Positions 12,179-32,532 of a stretch of 46,030 bases of DNA are shown here, piece by piece. Made by a program: the position numbers and the translations under genes. Origin of the DNA: Syntrophothermus sp. Lineage in GTDB: Bacteria; Bacillota; UBA5301; JAMCQP01. The DNA lies in contig JBLNCV010000193.1 of the NCBI GenBank assembly GCA_050260975.1, positions 1 to 46,030 of the forward strand. The letters are read 5' to 3'. The notes beneath the pieces are model-generated. The model was given only the letters and a program-made list of their open reading frames with translations, was not told the origin of the DNA and did not search any database. Every line of letters starts with the position of its first letter. The first letter of the stretch is position 1.

Positions 12179-12192
12179 CGCTGATCACCTCT

Positions 12193-12654: not shown

Positions 12655-12659
12655 CAGCC

Positions 12660-13640: not shown

Positions 13641-13713
13641 GGTTCAATCACCACCTTTACCGTTCTTGCAATGCCACAAACTCACGAGGATTACGCGACG
13701 AGAACCATGAGAA

Positions 13714-14013: not shown

Positions 14014-14050
14014 CTTCCCCGGGTGCCAACTACCTCACACTAATCCTGGT

Positions 14051-15403: not shown

Positions 15404-15432
15404 GATCCTTGCCCCCTATATTCAGGTCCTTG

Positions 15433-15984: not shown

Positions 15985-16040
15985 TTGCAACCCACCTTAC
16001 AATCCGCCACAATCAGCCCGTAGAAATATTCCAGAAAATT

Positions 16041-16063
16041 CCCGGCGGTTTACCGCCGGCCGG
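16041..16063 (-). terminator. GC-rich hairpin downstream of the isochorismatase-family gene (weak terminator/attenuator candidate)
   Basis: Minus strand reads CCGGCCGGCGG-TAAA-CCGCCGGG followed by AAUUUUCUGG. The U-tract has only four Us. Confidence 0.3.
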
Positions 16064-16082
16064 TAAGACCGCCCCAACCAAT

Positions 16083-16646: not shown

Positions 16647-16708
16647 AGCTATGCCTCCTCTGGCTCACTAACCTTCACACCCGACCTTCAGGACGCAATC
16701 ATCGCGGC

Positions 16709-18121: not shown

Positions 18122-18193
18122 TGTTCCTTCCTCCCTTGTCCAGGTATTTTTATTTACGGCTTACGCTGCCAACCGTAAAAGTATGCCGTTTTA

Positions 18194-19096
18194 TCACAGC
18201 CCGTACAGGTGATTCTCGAGAATCTGGTTCCGGTCAAACCCCTCAAGTTGCAGGAAGTATTCCAGCGAATTAACCAGCGATTCCATGGGCACCACGCCCA
18301 CCAGTTGGGTGCCCACCACTGGCACGCCGTAGCGGGCCGCCTCCATCTTGATGACCTCAAAAGTACGGTAGAGCGGCGTAGCCACGTAATCAAACATGTT
18401 CATGGAGACCACCACCTGCTTGCGTTCCTCAAAACGCAGGCCCACCGAGCGCACGGTGGTAAAGCCGCCGCTGGGCCCGCGCACAATCCTGGCGATGGAT
18501 TTGGCAATCTCCAGGTTATCCGTACCCAAAATGACGTTGAAAGCCACCAGCGGGTTGGTGCCGGCGCTGACGATCACCGCCCCGGCGGTAGGATGCAAAG
18601 CGGCCGGCCCGATGTCCGGCGCCCGCTCCGGCGTGTGCGCCACCTTTTTGAGCCCCTCGTACTGACCCTGGCGTATGTAATCCAGAACCTTGCGCTCCGG
18701 GGTGCGGGCATTCTCGCCGGTAAAGTAGACGGGCACCTTAAACCTTTTATAGACTTCCTGGCCGATCTCTTCCGCCAGGTTCACACACTCCCCTAGCGTG
18801 ATGTTTTTGAGAGGAAAGATGGGAATGGTATCCTGGGCGCCGATACGCGGATGGGAGCCGGTTTGTTCCTCCATATTGATAAGTTCGATGGATTTGCCCG
18901 CCATGTTCAGAAGAGCTTCTTTCAGCGGCTGCGGCTGGCCGATGAGCGTCACCACCGTCCGGTTGAAGTCGGGGTCGGGGGCGTAGTCCAGGAGTTTCAC
19001 TCCGGGAATGTTGCGCGCCTGATCCACCACGGCTTCGATTACCTCTTTGCGGCGGCCGTCGCTGAAGTTCGGCACCGCCTGAATGTACTTCTGCAT
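18194..19096 (-). CDS. Formiminotransferase (FtcD N-terminal domain type, stand-alone)
   Basis: 300 aa ORF. MQKYIQAVPNFSDGRRKEVIEAVV...DPDFNRTVVTLIG matches the glutamate formimidoyltransferase domain. There is no cyclodeaminase domain. SD AGGGAGGGA lies upstream. Confidence 0.85.
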   Translation of the reverse strand: MQKYIQAVPNFSDGRRKEVIEAVVDQARNIPGVKLLDYAPDPDFNRTVVTLIGQPQPLKEALLNMAGKSIELINMEEQTGSHPRIGAQDTIPIFPLKNITLGECVNLAEEIGQEVYKRFKVPVYFTGENARTPERKVLDYIRQGQYEGLKKVAHTPERAPDIGPAALHPTAGAVIVSAGTNPLVAFNVILGTDNLEIAKSIARIVRGPSGGFTTVRSVGLRFEERKQVVVSMNMFDYVATPLYRTFEVIKMEAARYGVPVVGTQLVGVVPMESLVNSLEYFLQLEGFDRNQILENHLYGL

Positions 19097-19162: not shown

Positions 19163-19205
19163 AGCCAAAATAAATGAGAGAGACGCAATCAGCATCCCTC
19201 TCATA
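19163..19205 (-). terminator. Intrinsic terminator forming the riboswitch expression platform
   Basis: The RNA AUGAGAGGGA-UGCUGAUUGCG-UCUCUCUCAU forms a 10 bp stem and is followed by UUAUUUUGG. Its 5' arm is the 3' strand of aptamer helix P1, so the two structures are mutually exclusive. Confidence 0.75.
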
Positions 19206-19267
19206 GCCAGGCGGTTTACGGCTGCCCGGTAGAAACTCTCGGCCCATATCGCCGAGGATATATGAGA
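19199..19267 (-). promoter_or_regulatory. Purine riboswitch aptamer, guanine/hypoxanthine/xanthine class (C at the specificity position)
   Basis: Minus-strand RNA: UCUCAUA UAUC CUCGGC-GAUAUGG-GCCGAG AGUUUCUAC CGGGCAG-CCGUAAA-CCGCCUG GC UAUGAGA. Compared with the B. subtilis xpt G-box, L2 AUAUGG, J2/3 GUUUCUAC, L3 CCGUAAA and the J3/1 C before UAUG are all conserved. P1 has 7 bp and P2 has 6 bp. Confidence 0.85.
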
Positions 19268-19727
19268 CCGGCAAAAACCGTTATGGATTTGAGAGTATCA
19301 TGCTCTCGCACCGTGACGACTTCCCGGACTTTAGTCCGAGGCTTCTCGGTTCATTTGCAGGCACCAGCGTACCCACATCCCCGAAGGCTCCGTCCGAGCC
19401 CTTGTTCTTTGCTGGCTTAGCTCATAAACTTCTCGGCTATATATTTTCGCGGGACCTGGCAAAACTCCTTCTTAAATAAACCAAATTTGCCAGAAAATCT
19501 GTTTATGTAGGATGACTTCTAGCCCCTTTGCCTTTGTATGAACAAGCGTTTTGTCAATTTACTTTTCCGATGACTTGTCCACCCTGCCTTTGTTCGCGGC
19601 GGCTCTCATTACCGGATAAATAAACTCTAAATGGGAAAATCTATCTCGATGGCGAAGAGAGGTCCAACCAACCACTCTACACTATATGCAGATCAAATAT
19701 ACAGGCCAAGGTAAAGGAGAATCGCCC

Positions 19728-21992
19728 TTGAAGTTCTGGCCCACCATCAAAAAACTTCTCACCTACCGGGAACCGCCGGCGCAGGAGAGCTTCAGCCTGG
19801 ACGGCCGGGTGGTTCCCGACGATCCCAACATGATGGTCACCGAAGGTGGCAACAAACCAGGCCAAAAGCAGGGTCAGGGCGCGCAGCAGCCGCCCGGCCA
19901 AAAGCAGGGGCAGCAGTCCGCCAATCAACAGCAAGGCCAACAGCGCAGAGAAAGCTGGTTCAGCAACATAGTGCAACCGAAGAAGCTTGAGGAACTGGCC
20001 AGCCAGATCGATCATCTCAAGCAGCCCGGCACACCCGCGCAAGCCCAAAAAGACCGCCCGGACGATAAAGCCGGCAAAGATGGGGCCAGCAAAAGGATCG
20101 TCACCTGGAGCAAACCTGGAAATAAAGCCCAGCAAGCCAGCCAAAAAAATGCCGGCCAAACTCAAAAAGGCCAACAACAAGATGGGCGGCAAGATAATCA
20201 ACAAGATCAACAGGGCGGGCAAGGTCAGTCTGCCCAGAACCAGGCCGGGCAACAGCCTGCCCCGCCAAATGAGAACAGACAGTCCCGGAACAAGGATAAT
20301 CAGGCTCGGGCAAACCAGGCTCAAGCTAGTCAGGCGGGCCAGACAAACCAGTCAGCCTACACCGCCCCGACCGAGGGCAGTAGACCACGGGCCAATGAAT
20401 TCTCCACCGATATTGAGCAAAATCTGGCCATCATCCAGCAGGCCTTCCTCTATGGGACAAACAAGGATATCATCGTCCGCAAGTTCGTCATCCCCCTGGA
20501 TCCGCCGGTGCGGGCTTTCATTGTCTTTCTTGAGGGAATGGCTGACAAAAAGGTAATCAACCGCGATGTCCTGGAACCCCTGATGCGCCCTTTGCAGATC
20601 AAGGATAAAGTCAGCGACGTTTTTACGATTGTCAAAGAGAGACTCCTGCCTGGAAATCAGGTTGAAGAAAAAAACAAGCTAAAAGACCTTTTAGACGGTA
20701 TCCTGGCCGGAGCCACCGCACTTTTTGTCGACGATTATCCAGCCGCTCTTCTCGCCGATACCAAGGGAATCCCCGCCAAGTCCATCGAACGCCCCCAGTC
20801 GGAGATAGTGGTCCGCGGCCCCCAGGAGGCCTTCACCGAATTGCTTCGCACCAACACCGCCCTGGTGCGCAAGCGGCTGCGGACCGAGCATCTGATCACC
20901 GAGATACTGAAAGTTGGCACCCTGAGTCATAGCGACGTAGCGATCATGTACATCAAGGGAGTGGTAAACCCCAAACTGGTAGCCGAGGTCAAACGGCGAA
21001 TCCAGGCCATTAAAGCCGACTACCTCTCTGCCAGCGGGATTATTGAACAGTTTATCGAGGATCGACCGTTTTTTCTCCTTCCCCAGGTTTTGTCCACCGA
21101 GCGGCCCGACCGGGTAGCCGCATTTCTGACTGAAGGGCACGTGGCCATCCTGGTGGAGAGCACCCCCTTTGCTCTAGTGGTACCCGTCAGCTTCTGGACC
21201 CTGCTTCACTCCTCGGAAGATATATATCTGCGCTGGCCTTTCGCAATCTTTCTCCGGACGATCCGGATCATGGCGATCATCCTCGCCGTATTCCTGCCAG
21301 CCCTCTACCTGGCCATGGTGAACTATCACTGGGAAATGATCCCCACCGACCTGCTCCTGGCTATCGCCGCCAGCCGGGAAAGGGTACCCTTCCCGGCGGT
21401 CGTGGAAGTATTCATAATGGAACTTTCCTTTGAGATCATCCGCGAGGCCGGCGTCCGGATTCCCAACGTGATCGGTCCCACCATCGGCATTGTGGGGGCG
21501 CTGATCCTGGGCCAGGCCGCCGTGGCCGCCTCCATCATCAGCCCGATCCTGATCATCATCGTAGCCATGACCGCCCTGGGTTCCTTTGTGGTGCCCAACC
21601 TGTCCCTCTCCTTTGCCGTGCGCTTGATTCGCTTCTATTACATCCTACTTGCCGCCTTTCTTGGGTTTTTTGGGATCGCCGTCGGACTCTTTATTCACCT
21701 CATCTCTATCACCAATCTGAAGTCCTTTGGAGTTCCTATCTTTGCACCGGTGGTTCCTCGCCAGCCCTCCGGCGGCGACATCATCCTGCGGTTCCCCATC
21801 TGGATGCAGCAACGCCGGCCTGAACACGTGGAACCGCTGGACGATTGGCGGCAGATAACCATCACCCGCCCCTGGGAGAACATCACGCCCGACGGAGTTC
21901 TGAAACCTGGCGAGGTCAACCAGCAGGAACATGCCGAGGAAAAAGCCCAGCACCACAAGCGGCCGGAAGGAGATGGCCAGAGTGCTCAATGA
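19728..21992 (+). CDS. Spore germination receptor A subunit (GerAA/GerKA family) with a long Gln/Gly/Asn-rich N-terminal region
   Basis: The C-terminal roughly 500 aa (FSTDIEQNLAIIQQAF...VRKFVIP...AFIVFLEGMADKKVI...PQSEIVVRGPQEAFTE..., then 5 TM segments) are typical of the GerA family. Start moved to TTG 19728 behind SD AAAGGAGA. The ORF track begins at 19686. Confidence 0.85.
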   Translation: MKFWPTIKKLLTYREPPAQESFSLDGRVVPDDPNMMVTEGGNKPGQKQGQGAQQPPGQKQGQQSANQQQGQQRRESWFSNIVQPKKLEELASQIDHLKQPGTPAQAQKDRPDDKAGKDGASKRIVTWSKPGNKAQQASQKNAGQTQKGQQQDGRQDNQQDQQGGQGQSAQNQAGQQPAPPNENRQSRNKDNQARANQAQASQAGQTNQSAYTAPTEGSRPRANEFSTDIEQNLAIIQQAFLYGTNKDIIVRKFVIPLDPPVRAFIVFLEGMADKKVINRDVLEPLMRPLQIKDKVSDVFTIVKERLLPGNQVEEKNKLKDLLDGILAGATALFVDDYPAALLADTKGIPAKSIERPQSEIVVRGPQEAFTELLRTNTALVRKRLRTEHLITEILKVGTLSHSDVAIMYIKGVVNPKLVAEVKRRIQAIKADYLSASGIIEQFIEDRPFFLLPQVLSTERPDRVAAFLTEGHVAILVESTPFALVVPVSFWTLLHSSEDIYLRWPFAIFLRTIRIMAIILAVFLPALYLAMVNYHWEMIPTDLLLAIAASRERVPFPAVVEVFIMELSFEIIREAGVRIPNVIGPTIGIVGALILGQAAVAASIISPILIIIVAMTALGSFVVPNLSLSFAVRLIRFYYILLAAFLGFFGIAVGLFIHLISITNLKSFGVPIFAPVVPRQPSGGDIILRFPIWMQQRRPEHVEPLDDWRQITITRPWENITPDGVLKPGEVNQQEHAEEKAQHHKRPEGDGQSAQ

Positions 21993-23079
21993 GGGACGTG
22001 TCGGAACCTCTGAAGTCTACGCCATGACCATTATCCTTATTTCCGGCAAGATTTTCCTGACCCTCCCCCAGAAGATGGCCCAGCTTGGCACCACCGCCGG
22101 CTGGATGATTGTCGCCACCGCAACGGTGATCGGGCTGGTGGGATTTGGGATTATCGCGGCTTTAATGCACCGGTTTCCGGATCACAGTATCGTGGAGATT
22201 AGTGAACAGGTGGCCGGGACCTTCTTTGGCTTGGCGGCTTCCCTGATGTTTTTTGCCTTTTTTCTGGCCCTCACGGTCATCGTCCTGCGGCAGTTCACGG
22301 AGACCGTGATCGCCACCGTCCTTCCCCGGACCCCGATTAGTATCATCACCACGATGTTCGTAATCGCGCTGGTCTTTGGTTGCTACCAGGGATTGGAAGC
22401 GATCTCCCGGCTTTCCTGGCTTTCTTTTCCCTTCCTTTTTCTGGGCGCTGTCACCATCCTCCTGATGAGCATGTCCTTTGCCAACTTCGATCACCTCTTT
22501 CCTTTCTGGGGGGTGGGGCTGTCAAGGATTCTTGCTCTGGGCGTAAAGCACTCGGCCATCATGTCGGAGATTCTGATTCTCCCCCTGATCTACCCGGCTC
22601 TTCGGGACCAGGACCGTTTCTCCCGCATCGGTTTGGCGAGTATCCTCGTTTCCGGGGTGTTGATGGCACTTTACAGCGCGCAGTTTCTGGCGGTCTTTTC
22701 GGTGGCCGAGGCCAGCCGCTCCGCCTTTCCCGCCTACCAACTCGCCCGATTGATCTGGATTGGCCGTTTCGTCCAGAGGGTCGAGTCCGTCTTCATCTTC
22801 ATGTGGGTGTTGACTGGTCTGCTGAATATGACCATCGCCCTGTACGGGGCCACGGTAACCCTCAGCAGGCTGCTTCATTTGCCGGCGTACCGCCCCCTGT
22901 TGCCGGCCATGGGGGTAATCGTTTATACTCTCAGCTTTGTACCGCCCAACTTCCCGACGATTGTCCGCCTGGATACCGAAGTCATCGGCGTCTACGGCTC
23001 CATCGTGTCTTTTGTGATCCCCTTGATTTTACTGATCATCGCCTGGTTCCGCGGGCAAAGGGGGCGGAAGAATGCCTAA
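21982..23079 (+). CDS. Spore germination receptor B subunit (GerAB, APC-type permease)
   Basis: Polytopic membrane ORF of about 365 aa at the position and size expected for GerAB. GTG 21982 lies 9 nt after GGAAGGAG. ATG 21973 is an alternative. It overlaps the gerAA stop. Confidence 0.8.
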   Translation: MLNEGRVGTSEVYAMTIILISGKIFLTLPQKMAQLGTTAGWMIVATATVIGLVGFGIIAALMHRFPDHSIVEISEQVAGTFFGLAASLMFFAFFLALTVIVLRQFTETVIATVLPRTPISIITTMFVIALVFGCYQGLEAISRLSWLSFPFLFLGAVTILLMSMSFANFDHLFPFWGVGLSRILALGVKHSAIMSEILILPLIYPALRDQDRFSRIGLASILVSGVLMALYSAQFLAVFSVAEASRSAFPAYQLARLIWIGRFVQRVESVFIFMWVLTGLLNMTIALYGATVTLSRLLHLPAYRPLLPAMGVIVYTLSFVPPNFPTIVRLDTEVIGVYGSIVSFVIPLILLIIAWFRGQRGRKNA

Positions 23080-24451
23080 CCAGTTCATCCGGGCAGCCGT
23101 CAGCGCCCTTTTGATTACCGCCATGCTCGTGAGCCTTACCGGTTGCTGGGACAGGCAGGAACTAGAAGATCTGGCCTTCGTTATGGCCATTGGTCTGGAC
23201 GAAGGTAAGAACGGCACAGTGCTGATGACTATCCAGATCGCCATCCCTAAGAATATTGTCAGTGGAGCGGGCGGAAGAGGCGGAGGGGGCGGAGGAGGCG
23301 GAGGGGGCGGAGGAGGCGGACAGAAGGTCCTGGTAACCTCTCTGGAAACCCGCAACCCTCTAAGCGGACTTAATTTGTTCAATACCTATGTAGGCCGGCG
23401 AATTACCCTGGTTCATGCTAAAGCACTCATCATCGGGGAAGGCCTGGCAAAAAAGGGCGTTCGCCGTTACCTGGGCGCCTTAAGCCGTTTCCGGGAGACC
23501 CGCCGGACCATGTTTGTGATCGTTACCAAGGGCAAAGCCGCGGAATTTATCCGGGAAAATCAACCTCTCCTGGAAGACAACCCGGGCAAATATATCGAAC
23601 TTCTTACCAACAACTCCACAACTACCGGCCTGTTCCCCAGAATCCAGTACCATAAATTTCTGGTGGCGACAGAATTGCAGACCGAAATGCCGATTGCCAT
23701 CCTGGCGGCGCTTAATAAAGGCAGCGGAAGTGGAGGAACGACCGGTGATATAGGTAAAACAAAGCCCGCGGAAAAAGAACTGGCCGGGCGCAAGACCACG
23801 ACCATCCAGATCCAGCGAGGACAGCCCGTGCGCCGACCGTTAAGTGAAGGCGCCTACACGGCAGGAGAGAGCCCCCGCGTCAACGGTAATAAAATCGATT
23901 TAATGGGAACAGCGGTCTTCGACGGGAATAAGATGGTGGGCGAGTTAAACGGCGATGAAACCCGGTTACTGCTGATGTTGCGGGGCGCGTTCAAGCGAGG
24001 GTTCATCTCCATTCAAGATCCGGCGAACGATGAGTTCTTCGACCCTATCGATGTACGGCCGGCCCGCAAGCCAGACATCCGCATCCGCCGGCAGGGAGAT
24101 AATTTCCGGATCAATGCCGACATTGCCCTGGAAGGAGACATCCTGGCGATCCAGAGTAAGGTGGATTACACCAGCCCCAAAATGATGCGGGTTTTAGAGG
24201 CCAAGATCAGCCGTTACCTCACCCAACAGGCGCAGGCACTGGTAGAGAAGACGCAAAAGGAGTTCAAAAGCGATATATTCGGCTTTGGAAACAAGGTACG
24301 GCACCTGGTCCCCACCTGGCAAGATCTGGTCAAGCTGTCGTGGCTCAACAAATACCCGGAAACGGATGTCAAGGTACGGGTAACTTTCAAAGTCAGGCGC
24401 GTGGGCACCGAGTTCCGGCCTGCCAAGCCACTGCCATCGGGAAGGAGGTAG
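23072..24451 (+). CDS. Spore germination receptor C subunit lipoprotein (GerAC family)
   Basis: Has the lipobox LVSLTGC followed by WDRQELEDLAFVMAIGLD, the conserved Ger(x)C N-terminus. Contains a run of 14 Gly. Confidence 0.85.
   Translation: MPNQFIRAAVSALLITAMLVSLTGCWDRQELEDLAFVMAIGLDEGKNGTVLMTIQIAIPKNIVSGAGGRGGGGGGGGGGGGGGQKVLVTSLETRNPLSGLNLFNTYVGRRITLVHAKALIIGEGLAKKGVRRYLGALSRFRETRRTMFVIVTKGKAAEFIRENQPLLEDNPGKYIELLTNNSTTTGLFPRIQYHKFLVATELQTEMPIAILAALNKGSGSGGTTGDIGKTKPAEKELAGRKTTTIQIQRGQPVRRPLSEGAYTAGESPRVNGNKIDLMGTAVFDGNKMVGELNGDETRLLLMLRGAFKRGFISIQDPANDEFFDPIDVRPARKPDIRIRRQGDNFRINADIALEGDILAIQSKVDYTSPKMMRVLEAKISRYLTQQAQALVEKTQKEFKSDIFGFGNKVRHLVPTWQDLVKLSWLNKYPETDVKVRVTFKVRRVGTEFRPAKPLPSGRR
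23263..23320 (+). repeat. GGC/GGA/GGG simple-sequence tract (18 nt unit ggcggagggggcggagga repeated) encoding poly-Gly
   Basis: Read directly from the sequence. Encodes GAGGRGGGGGGGGGGGGGG inside GerAC. Confidence 0.9.
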
Positions 24452-25112: not shown

Positions 25113-25302
25113 TGAACCAGCCCCCTTTTACATCAGTGTGTAGTATCGGCATTGAGCGGCAGGATATGTCCCCGGTCGGGTTGTACACCATATCTAAGAT
25201 CTTCCAATACCGATTATTACCATACTGGGTATAGTATATATGAAGAGGGCAAAAAAAGCAAGAAGCTTTCTTATCCAGCTTGCCATGACTTCAGCTCTAA
25301 GC

Positions 25303-25998
25303 CGCTAAAGCGGGGAAATAACCGCCTTCGGCCAGACCCTCAACCGCCACATCAATATCGGAGGCAGCCCGGAACTCGAGCACTTTGCGTCTGGGTAATC
25401 AAAATCCCATAGCGAGTTGGGCGGGAATCTTCTTGCAGGGGGTCGCTGAACAACCTAAGGGCAAGTGACCAAGAAAGAGCGTTACCGTTCTACCGGCGAA
25501 AGAAGCATTTATATTGAGCTTTACCATATTGATGAATCTTGATGATCCCCATGCCCCGCGAACCAGAAACGGGCTTTAAATAAACGGACTTGTGCCGTTG
25601 AAGCGCCTGGTTTAAGGATTGGTAGTCCCTCAAAAGATCGGTCTCTGGCAAATGCGTCCCGATATCAGATTCTCCTTTGAGCATCTGGTGAATCTTCCAT
25701 TTGTTGAATCTGGTGGTCCGGTTGAAGACCTGAACCCCACATTCCCTGAGCCTGTCCTGAAACCTGGCGCGGGCAGGGTAACTGAGATCGTACACCGCAT
25801 CCGGCATTGGAAAGATCCCGGTTCTCCATGCACCTTCTCCATTCAAGGTGAAATTGTAGCACGGCCCTGGATGGTCCTTTGCGCAAAGTCAACCGATTGA
25901 GGGGTGAACAATACGGCAATCCCCGCAGTCTTCCGGAGCGCCATCATGAACCGGGCCATATTAGGGGTACCTTCAAAGGAGGTCAAAACCAAGATCAT
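25303..25998 (-). pseudogene. Decayed third YheC/YheD-family ATP-grasp paralog (frameshifts, in-frame stop, truncated 3' end)
   Basis: ATG 25998 behind GGAGGTGG gives MILVLTSFEGTPNMARFMMALRKTAGIAVLFTPQSVDFAQRTIQG. Homology then continues in another frame (NGEGAWRTGIFPMPDAVYDL...YLKPVSGSRGMGIIKI, ORF 25490..25846). It passes a TAG at 25488-25490 (..RYGILITQ), then shifts frame again (LEFRAASDIDVAVEGLAEGGYFPALAA, compare IEVCTCDDRPFDIRVLLQKDGTGEWVVTALVAR in the intact copy). It ends without the C-terminal roughly 120 aa. Confidence 0.7.
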
Positions 25999-26015
25999 GG
26001 TTATCCACCTCCTGT

Positions 26016-27191
26016 TTAAAGAAGCTCCGGCCGGCCGAATCCGCTGAGATACCGAGCGTACTCCATGGGAAGCCTGTACGCCTTATCGATTATGTCCCGG
26101 TCGCCCAATGCTCGCACCGTCGACTTGGCAGGCTTGCTGTTGACCTCGAAGAGCCAGATCCCGCCGCTTTTATCTACACCGACATCGAGCCCCAACTCTC
26201 CTGATGGCCCGTATCTGGCATCCAAACAGGATCCAACCTGAATCGCCAGATGTTTTATATCCCGTACTATCTCCCCTGAACGCCCACCAAACCAATGCAC
26301 CAGCAAGTCCTCCGGGTATTTGACGGCTCCACCCGCGCCTACATTGGTCACCGCACCGCCGGCCTGAGCGACCCGGGCAACAAGGGCGGTCACGACCCAT
26401 TCTCCGGTTCCATCCTTCTGCAATAACACCCTGATATCAAACGGGCGATCGTCACAAGTACATACCTCAATCCCCTGCTGGACCACAAACCTGGCTTTGG
26501 GGTTGACTTCCCTCACCACTTTGTTAATGCCGTCCAGCCCGGCGGCCAGTTTCTGGACAAATCGTTCGCCTTTCATGAAAACGCACCAATACGACCCGCC
26601 CTCCGCGCTCTTTTGGATCCGGATGACCTCTTGGCCGAGACTGCCATAGTTCGATTTGACGTAGACACTGGCATACTTCTCCAGCATGGACACTACGCTG
26701 CCAGGGCCGTCATAAAGGATGGTCTCGGGCAGACAGGACACCGTGGCTTTATCGGAGGATAAAACCCGATAGGTCTGCCATTTCGCGAAATAGGGCTTGG
26801 AGTTGATGAACTTCACTCCATTGATGCTCTTCAGCCGTGAACGTGCCTCTTTGGCGACTGGCCGTTCTTCCTCCGGATAAGTGGCCCGATCGTATATCAC
26901 ATCAGGCAGCGGGAAAAGGGAACTGGTCCAACTTCCTGATTCCGGGTCGCGGTGGCAGCCACGGACGAGGGACTCCGGCCAGACAATCTCCTCTAGGGAA
27001 AAGATATAACAGGCCACTCGACTTTTGCAGGCCATTTCCACCAGATGATGCAAGCCTGCCGGAGCCCCCTGCTTCATTAAGATCGTGGACAAAGTTCTCC
27101 TGTTTACCAGTACCCCAACGATCGGGCTGTTGGCAATGCTCGGGCTATTCATGATGACCTGCACCTCTAGCATTGGAATCGCCTCCGCCAA
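26016..27191 (-). CDS. YheC/YheD-family ATP-grasp protein (YheC-like)
   Basis: 391 aa ORF. FPLPDVIYDR, YVKSNYGSLGQEVIRI, FDIRVLLQKD and GELGLDVGVDKSGGIWLFEVNSKP are YheC/D ATP-grasp motifs. The start may be internal (27173 or 27152). Confidence 0.8.
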   Translation of the reverse strand: MAEAIPMLEVQVIMNSPSIANSPIVGVLVNRRTLSTILMKQGAPAGLHHLVEMACKSRVACYIFSLEEIVWPESLVRGCHRDPESGSWTSSLFPLPDVIYDRATYPEEERPVAKEARSRLKSINGVKFINSKPYFAKWQTYRVLSSDKATVSCLPETILYDGPGSVVSMLEKYASVYVKSNYGSLGQEVIRIQKSAEGGSYWCVFMKGERFVQKLAAGLDGINKVVREVNPKARFVVQQGIEVCTCDDRPFDIRVLLQKDGTGEWVVTALVARVAQAGGAVTNVGAGGAVKYPEDLLVHWFGGRSGEIVRDIKHLAIQVGSCLDARYGPSGELGLDVGVDKSGGIWLFEVNSKPAKSTVRALGDRDIIDKAYRLPMEYARYLSGFGRPELL

Positions 27192-28602
27192 AGCCTGCCA
27201 GGTAAAAGCAAAACTCCACCGGCAAACGGTACATTCTCTCCTCCGCCGCCGGGTCTCCCAGCCGCTCCAGGCTGACTTTCAGCGGCTTTCCATTGGCCTC
27301 GATCAGCCAGATCCTGCCGTTCTTGTCAATTCCCATATCAAGTCCAATCTCTCCGCACGGGCGGTATCGCCGTTCAATGCATTCGGCGATTTCAATGGCC
27401 CTGGCTTCGACTTGCTCCTGCAGCCCGGATGCACTCCCGGGGAACGCGCTGTTCAGCGCCAACGAGATCGGCGCCACGCTGCCCCCGCTGCGCGGGCTGG
27501 TGATGACGCTCCCTTCCGCCGCCAGCCGCGCCACAATTCCACCGATTGCCCAACGCCCGGTGATATCCTTTTGCACCAGGGCACGTATGTCAAACGGGAC
27601 GCCGCCATGCTCGGCCAGGTCAATCCGCTGCTGGACGATGTAATTTCGATCCTGCCTTCGGTACGGAGCCAGGAACCGGTTCAGTTCCGTCCCACTATTC
27701 ACATCCTCAACTCTATTTACCGGATGGTCACGGTACTCCACCCGCAACCGGCCGCCGGGGAGGCGTGAAACCCGGAAGACCCCCTGGCCCCTAGAAAGAT
27801 CATCCGGTTTAAGGTAGACCGCGTCATATCGCGAAAGCATCTCCAGTACCGAGCTTGCATCGCGATACAATATCGTTTCGGGCAGAATGTCCTTGACCGG
27901 ATCACACTGCCGGAGAATCTCCATGGTCTCCCATTTACACAGTTTGGGCATGGCGTTAAACAAGGGCGTCTCGTTGCCTTCTTTTTCCATCAACTCACGC
28001 AAAGTAATCGCTTCCGCCCTCCGCAAAGAGCGGTCATAGATGACGTCAGGGAAGGGTCTGATGCTGCTGCACCACTTGACACCTTCAGGAGACAGCGTCC
28101 GTGTCCAACCCCTTATCAGGCCCCGGCCCCAATCAATATCCAGCAAACTGAAAAGGTAAGCAATCGCGCCCAGGCCCCGAGCGATCGATAACACTTTTTC
28201 ATGGGCCCGCTCCGTTCTGCCGAAAAAAAGCCGGCCAGACTGCTGGGCGCTAACGAACACTCCGATGACCGGCCCCAAGCTTAAGCAATTGCCGACCGAA
28301 TCCCATCTGGCATTGCACGTCGCCTCGACGGGAATGTGCAAGAGGTTGAGCAGGAAAGAACTCATACGAATGGAGGTATCCTCGCCGCCTGCCAAACTCA
28401 GTAAGGCACTGGTGCAAATGCCGCCAACCCTGACCTCAATTGCCGGTCTTTTTACCGGCAGGTTCAGACCGGCAGCCAAACCCCTGGAGAGTTGAACCAC
28501 CAGTGGCCCACCTTTTCCACCGGAAAGCTCAGCCAGCCGCACTCTTGCGCTGGATTCGCCGTCTGCCACCTTATTGGTTCTCCACAACTTTAAAAAGGTC
28601 AT
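27145..28602 (-). CDS. YheC/YheD-family ATP-grasp protein with a roughly 100 aa N-terminal extension (YheD-like)
   Basis: 485 aa ORF with the same motif set (FPDVIYDR, YLKPDDLSRGQGVFRV, FDIRALVQKD, GEIGLDMGIDKNGRIWLIEANGKP). Confidence 0.8.
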   Translation of the reverse strand: MTFLKLWRTNKVADGESSARVRLAELSGGKGGPLVVQLSRGLAAGLNLPVKRPAIEVRVGGICTSALLSLAGGEDTSIRMSSFLLNLLHIPVEATCNARWDSVGNCLSLGPVIGVFVSAQQSGRLFFGRTERAHEKVLSIARGLGAIAYLFSLLDIDWGRGLIRGWTRTLSPEGVKWCSSIRPFPDVIYDRSLRRAEAITLRELMEKEGNETPLFNAMPKLCKWETMEILRQCDPVKDILPETILYRDASSVLEMLSRYDAVYLKPDDLSRGQGVFRVSRLPGGRLRVEYRDHPVNRVEDVNSGTELNRFLAPYRRQDRNYIVQQRIDLAEHGGVPFDIRALVQKDITGRWAIGGIVARLAAEGSVITSPRSGGSVAPISLALNSAFPGSASGLQEQVEARAIEIAECIERRYRPCGEIGLDMGIDKNGRIWLIEANGKPLKVSLERLGDPAAEERMYRLPVEFCFYLAGFGGGDSNARGAGHHE

Positions 28603-28629
28603 CCAACTCTACCCCTTCATCAACCTGGT

Positions 28630-29874
28630 TCATCCCTCTGGACCGTCGTCAATGCAAATCACCCGGTTCTCCCATGTCCTGAGGACCACCCGCCCGGTCT
28701 CCATGGACAAAAGATACTGGGGGAAAATTGGTACCTTACCGTATCCACCAGGCACGTTGATCACAAAGGTTGGAATGGCAAGTCCCGACGTGCGCCCCCG
28801 TAGATGTTCCATAATCTTGAGACCTGTTTCCAACCGGGTAATAAAATGGCTCGTCCCTTTAACAGGTTTTGCCTGATAAAGGTAGTAGGGCCGGACCCGG
28901 ATCTTCAGCAGCTCCTGCCCCAGTTTTTGTATAATGTAGGGGTTGTCATTGACCCCCTTGAGCAGGACAGCCTGGTTTCCGAGGACGACGCCCGCCGACA
29001 GCAAACCGTCACAGGCGGCTCTGGCTTCAGGGGTAATCTCCCGCGGATGATTGAACTGGGTATTCAGATAGATCGGTGGATGCTTCCTCAGAATCTGCAC
29101 CAGATCCGGGGTAATTCGTTGAGGCAGTGTTACGGGAGTTCTCGTGCCCACCCGCTTGATTTCCAGATGGTCGATCTTGTCCAGTTCCCAAAGCAGCCAG
29201 TCGACTGTTTCATCCGCCAGTGTCAGAGCATCGCCGCCGGTGAGAATTACGTCCCTGATCTCCACGTTGTACCGAATATAGGCCAATGCGCGTTTTAAAA
29301 CCTCCTTTGGAGTATGGCAATCCCGTTCTCCAATATTCCGGCGTCTCTGGCAGTGGCGGCAGAAACTTGCACACTGGTTCGTGACATTAACAATCAACCT
29401 GTCCGGATAACGCCTGGTTATAGCGGAAACAGGCGAGGTCTTGCCTTCGGCCATTGGATCATCGGTACCAAAGGTATCGTTCAATTCGGCAACAGTTGGC
29501 AGCGCTTGCTTGCGAATTGGGCAAGCCGGATCATTCGGGTCCATCAAAGCGGCATAGTAGGGGGATACCGCCCAGCGGAATTTCGTGCCGACCGCGTCAA
29601 TTTCGGCAACCGTCTCTTCGGGCAGTCCAAGAAGGTGGCCAATCTTCGCAGGTTCACTGATCCTGTGGCTTAATTGCCAGCGCCAGTCCTCCCAGTCATG
29701 GTCGCTGGCCCCAAGGCTGGCCATGAGCTTTTTCTTTTGCCGGTCGAAGGAGTCTTGAATGTCGAATCCGGTCAAAATATTCAGAGTCTCTTTTCTGCTC
29801 TCCCCGGCAATCTCCTTCAACCGAAACATCCGCCTGGCGGTTCCTTCTTCCGCATCTTTTTCACCACGATACAT
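28630..29874 (-). CDS. KamA-family radical SAM aminomutase with a glutamate 2,3-aminomutase-type active-site signature
   Basis: Has the CASFCRHC (CxxxCxxC) cluster and GGDAL. By eye alignment to C. subterminale lysine 2,3-aminomutase, YQCD(293)L becomes YQAKP and VVD(330)APGGGGK becomes VINVPGGYGK. That Asp-to-Lys and Asp-to-Asn pair was reported for glutamate 2,3-aminomutase. Confidence 0.7.
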   Translation of the reverse strand: MYRGEKDAEEGTARRMFRLKEIAGESRKETLNILTGFDIQDSFDRQKKKLMASLGASDHDWEDWRWQLSHRISEPAKIGHLLGLPEETVAEIDAVGTKFRWAVSPYYAALMDPNDPACPIRKQALPTVAELNDTFGTDDPMAEGKTSPVSAITRRYPDRLIVNVTNQCASFCRHCQRRRNIGERDCHTPKEVLKRALAYIRYNVEIRDVILTGGDALTLADETVDWLLWELDKIDHLEIKRVGTRTPVTLPQRITPDLVQILRKHPPIYLNTQFNHPREITPEARAACDGLLSAGVVLGNQAVLLKGVNDNPYIIQKLGQELLKIRVRPYYLYQAKPVKGTSHFITRLETGLKIMEHLRGRTSGLAIPTFVINVPGGYGKVPIFPQYLLSMETGRVVLRTWENRVICIDDGPEG

Positions 29875-30002
29875 CTTTTACCTCCATCCGAACGTCGTCA
29901 TTGCCCCTGCTATTCTCCTTCATGACGCTCTATGACAGGATATGCTCAATGTCAGACAAGGGTGCCTTACTGCTGAATTTCACTTCCGCAATCTCAGCGC
30001 TG

Positions 30003-30040
30003 TAAAAACAGCCCATCCCTCCCGTCAAGGAGGGATGGGC
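30003..30040 (-). terminator. Rho-independent terminator after the HExxH protein gene
   Basis: Minus strand GCCCATCCCTCC-TTGACG-GGAGGGATGGGC is a perfect 12 bp stem, followed by TGTTTTTAC. Confidence 0.75.
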
Positions 30041-30193: not shown

Positions 30194-30685
30194 CTAAACA
30201 GGCCGGCTTTCATCAACTTCCTGGTAGGCGGCAATCTGGCGGCAGGCCTCCCGGGCGGTCAACGCGGCCCGTACCTGCCCCGCCATTTGCGGGTCGATAA
30301 AGAAAGTGTAATCCTCCACGGAAAGAGGTATTTCCAGCTCCTGCAAGAGGCAATAACCGGTAATAAAGGCCGAAAATTCGATCTCGGCAGGCACCTGCGA
30401 CCAGTGCAGGTGGCGGGTCATCTCCAGGTGCGAAGGATGCCGCGAAAAATCAATCACATGCCCGAGTTCATGGGCCAGGATTACCACCAGGTACGGAAGC
30501 GGTTCGTTGGCCAGATCCGGCTCCCAGACGTAAATAGTCCGGTCAGCTGGCTGGTAGAACCAAAGTTCGTGGACATTACTCGGCGCAAATCTTATTCCCA
30601 GCCCGTGAGCCTTCCGGACTAATTTGGCCAGATGCAAATTTTCAGGAAATCGCAATGAGCCCAGGGGCAAAGGGGTTTCGGACAT
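30194..30685 (-). CDS. Putative zinc metallopeptidase (HExxH; ImmA/IrrE-like or similar)
   Basis: 163 aa ORF with VVILAHELGHVIDF. I recognised no other family signature. Confidence 0.4.
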   Translation of the reverse strand: MSETPLPLGSLRFPENLHLAKLVRKAHGLGIRFAPSNVHELWFYQPADRTIYVWEPDLANEPLPYLVVILAHELGHVIDFSRHPSHLEMTRHLHWSQVPAEIEFSAFITGYCLLQELEIPLSVEDYTFFIDPQMAGQVRAALTAREACRQIAAYQEVDESRPV

Positions 30686-31194: not shown

Positions 31195-32532
31195 TCATCC
31201 AAACGGTTTCCAGGATTTGACCACCTGCTGCATATGTGTACCCTGGGCCGGCACTCCCTGCGCAAATAAACCTCGTCCAGCCTGCCCCGGAAAATTCGTG
31301 GGTTGTCCGGGCGAGGGATTGACAGGTACGTTCACCACATATGAATCGCCGGTCCATGGCCGGAAAGCATGCACATTGATCGCCCCCGGCGGTATATACG
31401 GATTGTACACGTCGTTTCCTCCGTATCCACCAGAGACCTCGTATCCCTCGTTCCCCTCATCTTCCTCATACTTTCCCGACTTCTGCCGGGTTGGCAGCGA
31501 TCCCTGCGTGGGTAAGCCGTATTGCGGCGATTTGGACGGCAGTGTTCCCTGAGGCGCCTCGGATGGAATAGGTGCCTGTTGCCCCGAGGCAGGCATTTCC
31601 TGCCTTGCGAAAGATTCGGATTCCAAAGGGACTGGTAGTTTCTCAGGAACAGACAATTCGTCTGGGATGGGCAATTCGTCGGAGATCGTCATCCAATCGC
31701 CGGTTACGATCCCTGCTTGTTTTTGAGACTTCGTTCGTGTCAAGGAGCGGAAATAGCTTACTATCCCCTGGTAAAGCCCTTCGGCGCAGCGTTGGTGGAA
31801 ATCGGACATCAGAGGGGATTGTTTATTTGAGGTGTGGCCGTAGCACCCGCATTCCACCACGGCCGACGGCGCCCATGTCCCCGCCAGGAGGCGAAAATAT
31901 TCTTCGTTCTCCGGATCGCTCAGGCACAGCCTCATCCCCGCATCCGGCAGACCCGTGGCCTGAACAACTCCTTTGCTCAAGTTTTGTGCAAGCCGCCGGC
32001 TTCGAAAGAACGGGATATACGAGTAATATGCCGTTACCCCGGGTTTGCAGCCCGGCCCCATGCCTGAGGTATGGATACTCAGAATCAACGAAGGGCGTAC
32101 CCTGTTGGCGATCTTTGCCCTCTCCCTTGCCGGTACCGCCTGATCTGCCTCGCGTGTCATGATGACCGTCGCGCCCGCCGATAATAGAAGCGCACGAAGC
32201 CGCAGGGCAATATCCAGGGTTTCATGCGCCTCCGCATCACCTTGAGAGCCTGATTCACCTTGAGCCGATCCCCCGTGCCCCGGATCAAGAACAATCACCT
32301 GGCCCCCCGCAAATGAATTAATGTGGAGTTTCCGATTTTGGCGATCCACATGCGCCCGAGCTCCAGTGGCTTTACAAACCGTCAGGACCGCTGGTAAAGC
32401 CGGTTCCTGGATCGGTGACAATTCTTGATCTTCCACAAAAAGCTTTATATCCATTTCAACCGTCATCCTCCCGGCGGTGCCCGTCGGCCTTCCCAAGGCG
32501 GCCAATCCATCACATTTATCCAGAGCTACCAC
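31195..32532 (-). CDS. N-acetylmuramoyl-L-alanine amidase (Amidase_3, CwlD/sporulation type) with a Pro/Gly/Gln-rich C-terminal region
   Basis: IVLDPGHGGS...EAHETLDIALRLRALLLSAGATVIMTRE...RERAKIANRVRPSLILSIHTSG is the MurNAc-LAA catalytic domain. The start is uncertain (32532, 32466 or 32454). Confidence 0.8.
   Translation of the reverse strand: MVALDKCDGLAALGRPTGTAGRMTVEMDIKLFVEDQELSPIQEPALPAVLTVCKATGARAHVDRQNRKLHINSFAGGQVIVLDPGHGGSAQGESGSQGDAEAHETLDIALRLRALLLSAGATVIMTREADQAVPARERAKIANRVRPSLILSIHTSGMGPGCKPGVTAYYSYIPFFRSRRLAQNLSKGVVQATGLPDAGMRLCLSDPENEEYFRLLAGTWAPSAVVECGCYGHTSNKQSPLMSDFHQRCAEGLYQGIVSYFRSLTRTKSQKQAGIVTGDWMTISDELPIPDELSVPEKLPVPLESESFARQEMPASGQQAPIPSEAPQGTLPSKSPQYGLPTQGSLPTRQKSGKYEEDEGNEGYEVSGGYGGNDVYNPYIPPGAINVHAFRPWTGDSYVVNVPVNPSPGQPTNFPGQAGRGLFAQGVPAQGTHMQQVVKSWKPFG

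What the first reader, a model, noticed from the sequence alone, without database searches (positions are those of the whole stretch)
25303..29874. Glutamate-2,3-aminomutase-type radical SAM gene co-oriented with tandem YheD/YheC ATP-grasp ligases: a possible beta-glutamate ligation system of the spore
Seen: a KamA-family ORF (CxxxCxxC cluster) is followed 27 nt later by a YheD-like ATP-grasp ORF, then an overlapping YheC-like ORF, then a decayed third copy. By eye alignment to lysine 2,3-aminomutase, the two Asp residues that bind the lysine epsilon-amine are Lys (YQAKP) and Asn (VINVPGG) here. Established: that Asp-to-Lys and Asp-to-Asn pair was reported as the signature of glutamate 2,3-aminomutase, which makes beta-glutamate and whose physiological role in Clostridia is unclear. 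YheC/YheD are spore-coat-associated ATP-grasp proteins of unknown substrate. Inference: the aminomutase may supply beta-glutamate that the ATP-grasp enzymes ligate into an oligomer or onto a coat or cortex component. This would give a testable function to two orphan families at once.
Basis: partly seen in the sequence, partly recalled or inferred. Interest (0 to 1): 0.62.

Follow-up and report, generated by a model that had tools for sequence, protein, structure and literature searches.

The report
Beta-glutamate aminomutase with ATP-grasp ligases
A gene for the enzyme that turns glutamate into beta-glutamate sits in one operon with two spore-coat-type peptide-bond-forming enzymes. This pairing recurs in many distantly related spore-forming bacteria and carries sporulation-type rather than osmotic-stress control signals. 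It therefore probably builds an unknown beta-glutamate-containing peptide or protein modification.

Summary
On the minus strand lie an intact glutamate-2,3-aminomutase-type KamA gene (28630-29874), a 485-aa and a 385/391-aa YheC/D ATP-grasp gene, and a truncated relic of a third copy.

A HMMER alignment to lysine 2,3-aminomutase 2A5H puts Lys336 and Asn373 at Asp293 and Asp330.

The adjacency is not general. None of the 80 most similar eam loci in reference genomes has a YheC/D gene within 10 kb. However, the closest relatives of the 485-aa ligase sit beside an eam gene in about six deep lineages (29-57% GC). Gene orders differ, and the lineages include cultured Clostridium sp. NSJ-6 and C. 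swellfunianum. Only eam and two ATP-grasp types are shared.

Regulation differs sharply:
- 15 of 18 stand-alone eam genes carry a c-di-AMP riboswitch, against 0 of 11 linked ones.
- A sigma-K-like promoter motif precedes the cluster in 5 of 6 linked lineages, against 1 of 78 stand-alone eam genes.

Best reading: a sporulation-expressed module in which Eam supplies beta-glutamate and the ATP-grasp ligases attach or polymerise it on a peptide or protein acceptor. The chemistry is untested. I found no paper describing this link.

The parts
28630..29874 (-). eam: glutamate 2,3-aminomutase-type KamA-family radical SAM/PLP enzyme, 414 aa. First gene of the operon.
   Evidence: TIGR04368 scores 627.8 bits (cut-off 650) against 443 for the LAM model. 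The alignment to 2A5H gives CxxxCxxC, the PLP lysine, K336 at D293 and N373 at D330. dN/dS is 0.17.
27145..28602 (-). grasp1: long YheD-like ATP-grasp amide ligase, 485 aa. Residues about 17-113 form a double-psi beta-barrel-like N-domain. Then come a pre-ATP-grasp domain and the PF14398 catalytic domain (212-468).
   Evidence: PF14398 scores 229 bits. Invariant K265, G272/G274, Q324, D338/R340 and E435/N437 are present. The AF2 model has pLDDT 85, and Foldseek places it nearest LysX/ArgX, RimK, Ddl and GshB. The N-domain resembles the VCP/p97 N-domain barrel.
26016..27173 (-). grasp2: short YheC-like ATP-grasp ligase, 385 aa from ATG 27173 (391 aa if TTG 27191). It overlaps grasp1 by 29 nt.
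   Evidence: PF14398 scores 259 bits and covers profile positions 2-255 of 255. dN/dS is 0.24.
25493..25966 (-). Relic of a third ATP-grasp gene (pseudogene). Only residues 106-263 of the 456-aa orthologue remain, with one frameshift. Both ends are deleted.
   Evidence: tblastn and blastn against the intact L081 gene 13856-15226. The fragment 25490-25846 hits PF14398 profile positions 2-77.
25299..25376 (-). 78-nt relic of a nucleotidyltransferase (Polbeta/MNT) gene. In the relative L081 it is part of an intact MNT/HEPN pair downstream of the cluster.
   Evidence: blastn gives 85% identity to L081 15629-15706.
29936..29963 (-). Sigma-K-like promoter motif AC-N17-CATATCCTG, starting 89 nt upstream of the eam start codon.
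   Evidence: Sequence. It is nearly identical (2 spacer substitutions) in the 93% relative (regex match). The same motif lies at -75 to -98 in L100, L086, L096 and L093. Shuffle probability is 0.005-0.03 each. It occurs upstream of 1 of 78 stand-alone eam genes.
30004..30040 (-). Intrinsic terminator (GCCCATCCCTCC-TTGAC-GGGAGGGATGGGC followed by TGTTTTT). It ends the upstream gene, so eam begins its own transcription unit.
   Evidence: Read directly from the sequence. The stem is conserved in L081.

Best explanation
This is a three-gene operon, eam-grasp1-grasp2, with a dead third ligase copy, in an uncultured thermophilic spore-forming member of the Bacillota.

Proposed mechanism:
- Eam converts L-glutamate to beta-glutamate (3-aminoglutarate) by radical SAM/PLP chemistry.
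- The two paralogous YheC/D ATP-grasp ligases use ATP to form amide bonds with that beta-glutamate.
- The long ligase carries an N-terminal double-psi-barrel domain of a kind that binds proteins in VCP/p97. It most likely recognises the acceptor and adds the first residue.
- The short ligase extends the chain. This mirrors the initiating and elongating tubulin glutamylases, and RimK.
- The module is expressed from a mother-cell-type (sigma-K-like) promoter during sporulation, so the product is probably a spore-envelope component.

Shown here:
- gene identities and intact catalytic residues;
- operon structure;
- recurrent linkage of eam with these two ligase types across distant lineages;
- the regulatory switch away from the c-di-AMP riboswitch.

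Inferred, not shown:
- beta-glutamate as the ligase substrate;
- the division of labour between the two ligases;
- a peptide or protein acceptor;
- the spore location.
For: Identity and integrity.

Operon structure: a 27-nt gap, a 29-nt overlap, an upstream terminator and its own promoter region.

Linkage:
- Among the relatives most similar to grasp1, an eam gene lies beside or among the YheC/D genes, at most about 9 kb from the matched one, in L086, L093/L099, L096, L097, L100/L180, L102, L177 and L182.
- Eam may be first, last, internal or divergently oriented.
- GC content ranges from 29% to 49% in those loci, against 54% for L081 and 57.6% for the window. Eam identity between lineages is 45-62%.
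- Only eam, a grasp1-type and a grasp2-type gene are shared by all of them.
- More distant YheC/D arrays never have a KamA gene.

Regulation:
- A c-di-AMP riboswitch lies upstream of 15 of 18 stand-alone eam genes. It is absent from the window and from 10 linked loci (Fisher p = 5e-5 on the 0/9 computed).
- The sigma-K-like motif is present in 5 of 6 linked lineages against 1 of 78 stand-alone eam genes (p = 1e-6). It was found again in L177, L180 and L182 after the pattern had been fixed.

Fold:
- The structural neighbours are LysX/ArgX, RimK, Ddl and GshB. Profile hits to tubulin-tyrosine ligase point to ligation of an amino acid onto a peptide or protein carboxylate.
- The N-domain resembles the VCP N-domain barrel.

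Background from papers:
- B. subtilis yheC and yheD are sigma-E/SpoIIID-controlled coat genes (PMC517825; PMC7725329).
- The window cluster lies beside a gerA germinant-receptor operon.
Against: - No biochemical evidence exists for any YheC/D enzyme. No acceptor gene is conserved in the clusters, and no shared ORF of 40 aa or more was found.
- Amino-acid permeases recur in three linked loci. A PLP decarboxylase and a racemase-like gene sit inside the Clostridium sp. NSJ-6 cluster. This looks more like small-molecule metabolism.
- Three close grasp1 relatives (L089, L091, L092) have no eam within 8 kb.
- Two linked Eams lack the canonical Lys. L096 has Ile, and in L097 the Lys is shifted by one position.
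- The window Eam scores just below the curated equivalog cut-off.
- The promoter consensus is from B. subtilis and recalled from memory. Its last position was relaxed after seeing the window.
- The N-domain model is only moderately confident (pLDDT 74).
- The third ligase copy is decayed, and dN/dS is higher than in flanking genes. Some relaxation of selection is possible.
Confidence: 0.55

Rival explanations
1. The module makes a small soluble beta-glutamate-containing compound, such as a di- or tripeptide, a storage compound or a secreted metabolite. The ATP-grasp enzymes would act as L-amino-acid-ligase-type enzymes on free amino acids, not on a spore macromolecule.
For: - Amino-acid permeases lie inside or beside the cluster in L086 (two), L100/L180 and L177.
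- An Orn/DAP/Arg-type PLP decarboxylase and an alanine-racemase-fold gene are embedded in the Clostridium sp. NSJ-6 cluster.
- No conserved acceptor gene was found.
- The structural neighbours include Ddl and glutathione synthetase, which act on free substrates.
- Beta-glutamate is a known compatible solute and eam has been linked to osmoprotection (PMC9337991).
Against: - Linked eam genes have lost the c-di-AMP and Na+ riboswitches that mark the osmolyte-type eam. They carry sporulation-type promoter motifs instead.
- grasp1 has an extra protein-binding-type N-domain.
- The number of ligase paralogues varies from 2 to 7. This fits decoration or polymerisation better than a fixed small product.
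- The permeases are absent from the window, L093, L096, L097 and L182.
Confidence: 0.22
2. The genes are co-regulated sporulation genes but are not coupled through a substrate. Eam would make free beta-glutamate for the mother cell or spore, while the YheC/D ligases work with ordinary alpha-amino acids on coat proteins, as presumed for B. subtilis YheC and YheD.
For: - Most YheC/D arrays, including one with cotE embedded (L178), have no eam.
- Three close grasp1 relatives lack a nearby eam.
- Most eam genes lack ligases.
Against: - Co-regulation alone does not explain tight, repeatedly re-created adjacency, including overlapping reading frames (window; L086 by 13 nt), across 29-57% GC genomes with shuffled orders.
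- Linkage is restricted to one ligase subclade, which suggests substrate specialisation.
- Linked Eams are more divergent than stand-alone ones: TIGR04368 scores of 571-686 against 691-727.
Confidence: 0.15
3. The adjacency in this window is a chance neighbourhood or a decaying remnant without function.
For: The third copy is a pseudogene and a toxin-antitoxin relic lies next to it. None of the 80 nearest eam loci has a ligase.
Against: - All three genes are intact and under purifying selection.
- The same pairing occurs in many unrelated genomes, including cultured Clostridium species.
Confidence: 0.03

Closest known systems
Glutamate 2,3-aminomutase (Eam) of Clostridioides difficile (Ruzicka and Frey 2007, PMID 17222594; NCBIfam TIGR04368)
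   Same: - KamA-family radical SAM/PLP enzyme with the CxxxCxxC cluster and the PLP lysine.
- Lys and Asn replace the two Asp residues that bind the lysine epsilon-amine in LAM.
- The best model match is TIGR04368, about 185 bits above the LAM model.
   Different: - It scores 627.8, just under the curated 650 cut-off.
- It lacks the c-di-AMP riboswitch found before most stand-alone eam genes.
- It is the first gene of an operon with ATP-grasp ligases.
- Activity has not been tested. The Lys/Asn signature paper could not be opened in the library and is cited from my own knowledge.
Bacillus subtilis spore-coat proteins YheD and YheC (Pfam PF14398)
   Same: - Same Pfam family at high score.
- A long (about 450-485 aa) and a short (about 365-390 aa) paralogue are encoded side by side.
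- They occur in a spore former and show mother-cell-type promoter signals.
   Different: - Orthology to YheD and YheC themselves was not tested.
- The window proteins belong to a subclade defined by linkage to eam. No such link is described for B. subtilis in the papers read. Whether B. subtilis has an eam gene was not tested here.
- The substrate of YheC/D is unknown, so functional sameness cannot be stated.
EpmB-EpmA (YjeK-PoxA) beta-lysylation of elongation factor P
   Same: A KamA-family aminomutase makes a beta-amino acid, and a dedicated ATP-dependent ligase then attaches it to a protein. This is the same logic of supplier plus ligase. It rests on established knowledge. EpmB is a weaker model match here (TIGR03821, 226 bits).
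   Different: The amino acid is beta-lysine, not beta-glutamate. The ligase is a class II aminoacyl-tRNA-synthetase paralogue, not an ATP-grasp enzyme. The target is EF-P.
AblA-AblB (lysine 2,3-aminomutase plus beta-lysine acetyltransferase) of methanogens and some bacteria
   Same: A KamA-family aminomutase is encoded next to the enzyme that derivatises its beta-amino-acid product (reference list entry in PMC9337991).
   Different: The product there is a salt-induced compatible solute. Here the osmotic control elements are absent and the partner enzymes are ATP-grasp ligases.
RimK, LysX/ArgX-LysW and tubulin TTL/TTLL glutamylases
   Same: They are the nearest structural and profile neighbours of the catalytic domain. 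They are ATP-grasp enzymes that add glutamate-type amino acids to a protein C-terminus or a Glu side chain. The TTLL family has separate initiating and elongating enzymes.
   Different: Sequence identity is only 13-16%. They have different N-terminal domains. They use alpha-amino acids. No acceptor is known here.

Membership tests
Glutamate 2,3-aminomutase (TIGR04368 / KamA family) | Radical SAM CxxxCxxC cluster and KamA-family fold | tested here: met
   C168, C172 and C175 are present. Pfam Radical_SAM and LAM_C match. TIGR00238 scores 310 bits against a cut-off of 199. phmmer to 2A5H gives E = 3e-115.
Glutamate 2,3-aminomutase (TIGR04368 / KamA family) | PLP-binding lysine (LAM Lys337) | tested here: met
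   It is conserved as the K of GGYGK in the window and in all linked Eams.
Glutamate 2,3-aminomutase (TIGR04368 / KamA family) | Lys and Asn at the positions of LAM Asp293 and Asp330 | tested here: met
   K336 and N373 by the HMMER alignment. Both are invariant in 20 homologues. 82 of 84 aligned Eam-type sequences have K/N, while the LAM controls have D/D.
Glutamate 2,3-aminomutase (TIGR04368 / KamA family) | Score at or above the curated equivalog cut-off (650 bits) | tested here: not met
   The score is 627.8 bits, 22 below the cut-off. It is still by far the best model (LAM 443, arginine aminomutase 357). Other linked Eams score 571-686 and stand-alone ones 691-727. The protein is a divergent member or close sister, not a clear non-member.
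Glutamate 2,3-aminomutase (TIGR04368 / KamA family) | Conversion of L-glutamate to beta-glutamate | not testable with these tools
   This needs an anaerobic enzyme assay.
YheC/D ATP-grasp (PF14398) | Full-length match to the family profile above the gathering score | tested here: met
   grasp1 scores 229 bits and grasp2 259 bits (cut-off 26.8). Both cover profile positions 2-255 of 255.
YheC/D ATP-grasp (PF14398) | ATP-grasp catalytic residues: ATP-binding Lys with Gly-rich loop, Asp/Arg pair, Mg-binding Glu-x-Asn | tested here: met
   K265, G272, G274, D338, R340, E435 and N437 are invariant in the grasp1 alignment. The equivalent motifs VYVKSNYGSLGQ, FDIRVLLQKD and LFEVNSKP are in grasp2. 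The ATP-grasp fold is confirmed by the AF2 model and Foldseek.
YheC/D ATP-grasp (PF14398) | Spore-coat association and mother-cell expression, as for B. subtilis YheD | tested here: inconclusive
   A sigma-K-like motif is enriched upstream of linked clusters and a gerA operon lies next door. No expression or localisation data exist, and no RNA runs were found.
Aminomutase-plus-ligase beta-aminoacylation systems (EpmB/EpmA-like logic) | Conserved genomic coupling of a KamA-family enzyme with an ATP-dependent amide ligase | tested here: met
   Coupling is seen in about six deep lineages with differing gene order.
Aminomutase-plus-ligase beta-aminoacylation systems (EpmB/EpmA-like logic) | The ligase uses the beta-amino acid made by the aminomutase, and the acceptor is identified | not testable with these tools
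   No conserved acceptor gene was found. Biochemistry is required.

The most novel reading that the evidence does not exclude
The ATP-grasp pair builds chains of beta-glutamate. These would be either a free poly-beta-glutamate or a beta-polyglutamyl tag on a spore-envelope protein or on peptidoglycan. That would be a natural beta-peptide polyanion and a new kind of post-translational or wall modification. Glutamate 2,3-aminomutase would then have two separate physiological roles: an osmolyte role under c-di-AMP control and a sporulation role in this module.
Probability: 0.25. Interest if true: 0.85.

Novelty: new variant of a known kind. Interest (0 to 1): 0.7.

Why it matters
YheC/D ATP-grasp proteins are widely conserved spore-coat enzymes with no known substrate. 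The physiological role of glutamate 2,3-aminomutase in clostridia is also unsettled. This analysis supplies:
- a defined subclade of YheC/D ligases with a candidate substrate, beta-glutamate;
- a split of eam genes into two regulatory classes: riboswitch-controlled and stand-alone, or sporulation-type and ligase-linked;
- cultured organisms that carry the module (Clostridium sp. NSJ-6 and C. swellfunianum), so the hypothesis can be tested directly.

If the product is a beta-glutamyl peptide or tag, it would be new chemistry in the spore envelope. It could bear on spore resistance, because beta-peptide bonds resist ordinary proteases.

Tried and rejected
- Forward survey. The 80 reference-genome loci most similar to the window Eam (54-63% identity) held no YheC/D gene within 10 kb, by tblastn at 1e-5 and phmmer at E <= 1. 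No other neighbour was broadly conserved; contexts included an ABC ATPase, GuaB and a radical SAM gene. This rejects the idea that eam genes in general travel with YheC/D. The scan kept only the best 80 of at least 573 hits, so it was biased towards canonical Eams.
- Linked Eams as one clean clade. The NJ tree is only loosely suggestive and has long branches. I do not claim monophyly.
- Conserved accessory or precursor-peptide gene. None of 40 aa or more was found beyond permeases in three loci.
- Sequence search of grasp2 and of the grasp1 profile against the PDB. It gave only weak TTL and GshB hits.
- Riboswitch or other Rfam element in the eam leader. None was found.
- Simple sigma-70 and terminator scan of the region. 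It gave no more hits than shuffled sequence.
- RNA-seq. Only DNA metagenome runs hold the sequence: hot spring, soil and sludge.
- Literature. No paper in the library links eam with YheC/D. One search was wasted on the acronym YHEC. Ruzicka and Frey 2007 and Iyer et al. 2009 are not held, so an earlier mention there cannot be excluded.
- Organism name. Cluster look-up gave none.


Full report
**1. What is in the window**

All relevant genes are on the minus strand.

The ORF at 28630-29874 (414 aa):
- It matches Pfam Radical_SAM and LAM_C.
- Among NCBIfam models it matches TIGR04368, glutamate 2,3-aminomutase, best. The score is 627.8 bits against a curated cut-off of 650. Lysine 2,3-aminomutase scores 443 and arginine 2,3-aminomutase 357.
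- phmmer against the PDB finds one relative, lysine 2,3-aminomutase 2A5H (E = 3e-115). In that alignment LAM Asp293 faces Lys336 (YQAKP) and Asp330 faces Asn373 (VINVPGG).
- The iron-sulfur cysteines, Arg134 and the PLP lysine are all conserved.
- Lys336 and Asn373 are invariant in 20 homologues. They are present in 82 of 84 Eam-type sequences, while the LAM controls show Asp/Asp.

That this Lys/Asn pair is the published signature of glutamate 2,3-aminomutase is from my own knowledge of Ruzicka and Frey 2007. The paper is not held in the library.

The downstream genes:
- Twenty-seven nucleotides after the eam stop, behind a GAAGGGG site, begins a 485-aa PF14398 (YheC/D ATP-grasp) protein at 27145-28602.
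- A second PF14398 protein follows at 26016-27173. It most likely starts at ATG 27173 behind GGAGG and overlaps the first by 29 nt.
- Both cover the whole family profile and keep the ATP-grasp catalytic residues.

The third copy:
- A relative whose Eam is 93% identical (L081, assembly GCA_040960095.1) has the order eam, 484-aa ligase, 377-aa ligase and an intact 456-aa third ligase.
- In the window only residues 106-263 of that third gene survive (25966-25493). There is one frameshift and both ends are deleted.
- A 78-nt relic of the nucleotidyltransferase gene of a toxin-antitoxin pair lies next to it. That pair is intact in L081.

Operon boundaries and selection:
- A clear intrinsic terminator (30040-30004) ends the upstream gene, so eam opens its own transcription unit.
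- Against L081, dN/dS is 0.17 for eam, 0.21 for grasp1 and 0.24 for grasp2. The three genes are maintained by selection.

**2. Is the adjacency conserved?**

*Forward survey.* An Eam alignment was scanned against one genome per GTDB species, and the 80 best loci were kept (54-63% identity).
- None has a YheC/D homologue within up to 10 kb, by tblastn at 1e-5 or by phmmer at E <= 1.
- No other neighbour is broadly conserved either.
- Eam genes in general therefore do not travel with these ligases.
- The scan kept only the best 80 of at least 573 hits. These are canonical Eams that resemble the window protein more than the other linked Eams do.

*Reverse survey.* The 485-aa ligase has few close relatives. 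The contexts of the closest ones (34-43% identity) were read:

| Locus | Arrangement |
|---|---|
| L086 | ligase, then divergently ligase-eam with a 13-nt overlap, then two amino-acid permeases |
| L093 | Mur-type ligase; ligase-ligase; eam-ligase on the other strand |
| L096 | fused ligase; ligase-eam |
| L177 | ligase; eam; permease; more ligases |

Three related loci (L089, L091, L092) have a fused 718-aa ligase plus a 460-aa ligase and no eam within 8 kb.

A metagenome scan with the ligase alignment returned 80 loci.
- A KamA gene was present only among the six most similar. L097 and L102 have eam followed by three ligase domains, as in the window. L099 is the same contig as L093. L100 is the fourth.
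- No KamA gene was present in any of the roughly 70 more distant tandem YheC/D arrays.

A search with the L100 Eam found named isolates.
- Clostridium sp. NSJ-6 carries the L100 arrangement.
- Clostridium swellfunianum has eam directly beside an array of seven YheC/D genes.

What the linked loci share:
- GC content is 29-49% in the other linked loci, 54% in L081 and 57.6% in the window.
- Their Eams are 45-62% identical between lineages. The exception is one low-GC Clostridium clade at 72-73%.
- Eam can be first, last, internal or divergent.
- Across all of them only three things are shared: eam, a long grasp1-type ligase and a short grasp2-type ligase, sometimes fused.
- The third paralogue of L081 has no clear orthologue elsewhere. 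This fits its loss in the window.

Repeated linkage through rearrangement in distant genomes is good evidence of functional coupling.

**3. Two regulatory classes of eam**

*Riboswitches.*
- An Rfam scan of 18 stand-alone eam loci found a c-di-AMP riboswitch immediately upstream of eam, on the same strand, in 15 of them. One also has a Na+ riboswitch.
- The window has none. Neither do the ten linked loci tested.
- Fisher p = 5e-5, computed on 15/18 against 0/9. later added two more linked loci without a riboswitch.
- This fits the published association of eam and beta-glutamate with osmoprotection (PMC9337991). It also shows that the ligase-linked eam genes have left that regulon.

*Promoter motif.*
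- The motif AC-N16/17-CATAnnnT(A/G) is the B. subtilis sigma-K consensus as I recall it, with the last base relaxed.
- It lies 75-98 nt upstream of the first cluster gene in the window, L081, L100, L086, L096 and L093. A near match occurs in L097.
- Shuffles give 0.5-3% per region. The empirical background is 6% of 976 upstream regions.
- Only 1 of 78 stand-alone eam genes has it (p = 1e-6).
- After the pattern was fixed, it was found again upstream of several cluster genes in L177, L180 and L182.
- B. subtilis yheC and yheD are mother-cell genes of the sigma-E/SpoIIID regulon (PMC517825). Their products are coat proteins of unknown function (PMC7725329; bioRxiv 2022.02.25.481979).

*Other context.*
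- In the window the operon lies next to a gerA-type germinant-receptor operon. An amidase and a CAP-domain gene are nearby. These flanks are not conserved elsewhere.
- Linked Eams are also more divergent from the family model than stand-alone ones: 571-686 bits against 691-727.

**4. What the ligases look like**

- The AlphaFold model of grasp1 is confident (pLDDT 85, pTM 0.86).
- Its nearest solved structures are LysX/ArgX, RimK, D-Ala-D-Ala ligases, glutathione synthetase and the graspetide ligase PsnB.
- The family profile weakly hits tubulin-tyrosine ligases.
- These enzymes phosphorylate a carboxylate and join it to the amine of an incoming amino acid. In several of them the carboxylate belongs to a protein.
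- Residues 17-113 of grasp1 form a separate beta-rich domain (pLDDT 74). It resembles the double-psi beta-barrel of the VCP/p97 N-domain, with TM 0.54 on the query and about 0.7 on the target. In those ATPases that module binds proteins.
- The short grasp2-type ligases lack this domain.

**5. Most likely mechanism**

*Shown:*
- an intact Eam-type aminomutase and two intact ATP-grasp ligases form an operon;
- this trio is a recurrent module;
- its regulation differs from that of osmolyte-type eam.

*Inferred:*
- Eam supplies beta-glutamate.
- The long ligase binds an acceptor through its N-domain and adds the first beta-glutamate.
- The short ligase extends the chain.
- The product is made in the mother cell and ends up in the spore envelope.

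Beta-glutamate has two equivalent carboxylates, so chains and even branches are chemically plausible. I give this about 0.55.

*Rivals:*
- A soluble beta-glutamyl metabolite (0.22). It is favoured by the permeases and by the decarboxylase and racemase genes in the Clostridium clusters.
- Co-regulation without substrate coupling (0.15).
- Chance (0.03).

*Weak points:*
- There is no biochemistry for any YheC/D enzyme.
- There is no conserved acceptor gene.
- Two linked Eams have a changed Lys position: L096 has Ile, and in L097 the Lys is shifted.
- The promoter consensus is borrowed from B. subtilis.

**6. Comparison with what is known, and novelty**

- The aminomutase is a divergent member, or close sister, of the Eam family. 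All residue-level criteria are met, and the curated score cut-off is missed by 22 bits.
- The ligases are clear PF14398 members.
- The logic, a KamA-family enzyme feeding a dedicated ligase, is known from EpmB/EpmA (beta-lysylation of EF-P) and AblA/AblB.
- The pairing of Eam with ATP-grasp ligases, and the split of eam genes into riboswitch-controlled and sporulation-type classes, was not found in any paper I could search.
- Iyer et al. 2009, the paper that defined these ATP-grasp families, could not be read. An earlier mention there cannot be excluded.
- I rate it a new variant of a known kind, with interest 0.7.
- It makes the function of an orphan spore-coat enzyme family directly testable, in cultured Clostridium species that carry the module.

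Noticed in passing
L006 545-680, L071 6621-6756, L015 2108-2243 and 12 other stand-alone eam loci; L050 9535-9593: A c-di-AMP riboswitch (RF00379) sits directly upstream of eam in 15 of 18 stand-alone loci. One locus (L050) also has a Na+ riboswitch in tandem. This suggests that most eam genes belong to the osmotic and c-di-AMP regulon.
   Followed up: yes
window 19184-19285 (-), with genes 357-19096 (-): A purine riboswitch (74.9 bits) precedes a long co-oriented cluster. The cluster holds a formiminotransferase, amidohydrolases, an isochorismatase, UbiD/UbiX-type decarboxylase genes, adenine deaminase, XdhC, YqeC and a three-subunit xanthine-dehydrogenase-type molybdoenzyme. It is likely an anaerobic purine-degradation island. 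The same riboswitch is in L081 (19761-19862).
   Followed up: partly
window 12660-13640 (-): A 326-aa protein with two BMC (bacterial microcompartment shell) domain matches lies inside the purine-catabolic cluster.
   Followed up: no
window 38895-42063 (-): Three tandem paralogues of M42 glutamyl aminopeptidase (336, 345 and 377 aa).
   Followed up: no
window 19686-24451 (+): A gerA-type germinant-receptor operon. The A subunit (768 aa) has an N-terminal extension of about 255 aa before the GerA domain. The C subunit contains a run of 14 glycines, mirrored by a poly-proline antisense ORF.
   Followed up: no
window 25299-25376 (-); L081 15448-16321: The relative L081 has an intact nucleotidyltransferase/HEPN-type (Polbeta/HepT) toxin-antitoxin pair downstream of the ligase cluster. 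The window keeps only a 78-nt relic. The same deletion-prone stretch removed most of the third ligase gene.
   Followed up: partly
L178 5055-14053: A YheC/D array without eam also holds two COOH-NH2_lig (PF14395) amidoligases, an AstE/AspA-type peptidase and a cotE gene embedded among them. This is direct genomic evidence that such ligase arrays are spore-coat loci in some Bacillota.
   Followed up: no
L096 3736-5004; L097 3603-4826: Two ligase-linked Eam homologues deviate at the substrate-binding Lys. L096 has Ile (FQAIGV). L097 has the Lys one position earlier (FYKQQT) and the lowest family score (571 bits). Their substrate specificity may have shifted.
   Followed up: partly
L180 9168-11724 (the same genes are in L100 at 5407-7975): In Clostridium sp. 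NSJ-6 an Orn/DAP/Arg-type PLP decarboxylase and an alanine-racemase-fold gene are embedded between the ligases, next to an amino-acid permease. A Mur-ligase-family gene lies close by, as it also does in L093.
   Followed up: no
L089 5725-7881, L096 250-2184, L102 2341-5127: Some relatives encode fused double YheC/D ligases (644-928 aa).
   Followed up: no
window 30194-30685 (-) and 31195-32532 (-): Upstream of the operon lies a 163-aa protein with an HELGH metalloprotease-like motif and no family match. It is conserved in L081 with dN/dS 0.075. There is also a 445-aa Amidase_3 protein with a long low-complexity C-terminal tail rich in Pro, Gly and Gln.
   Followed up: no
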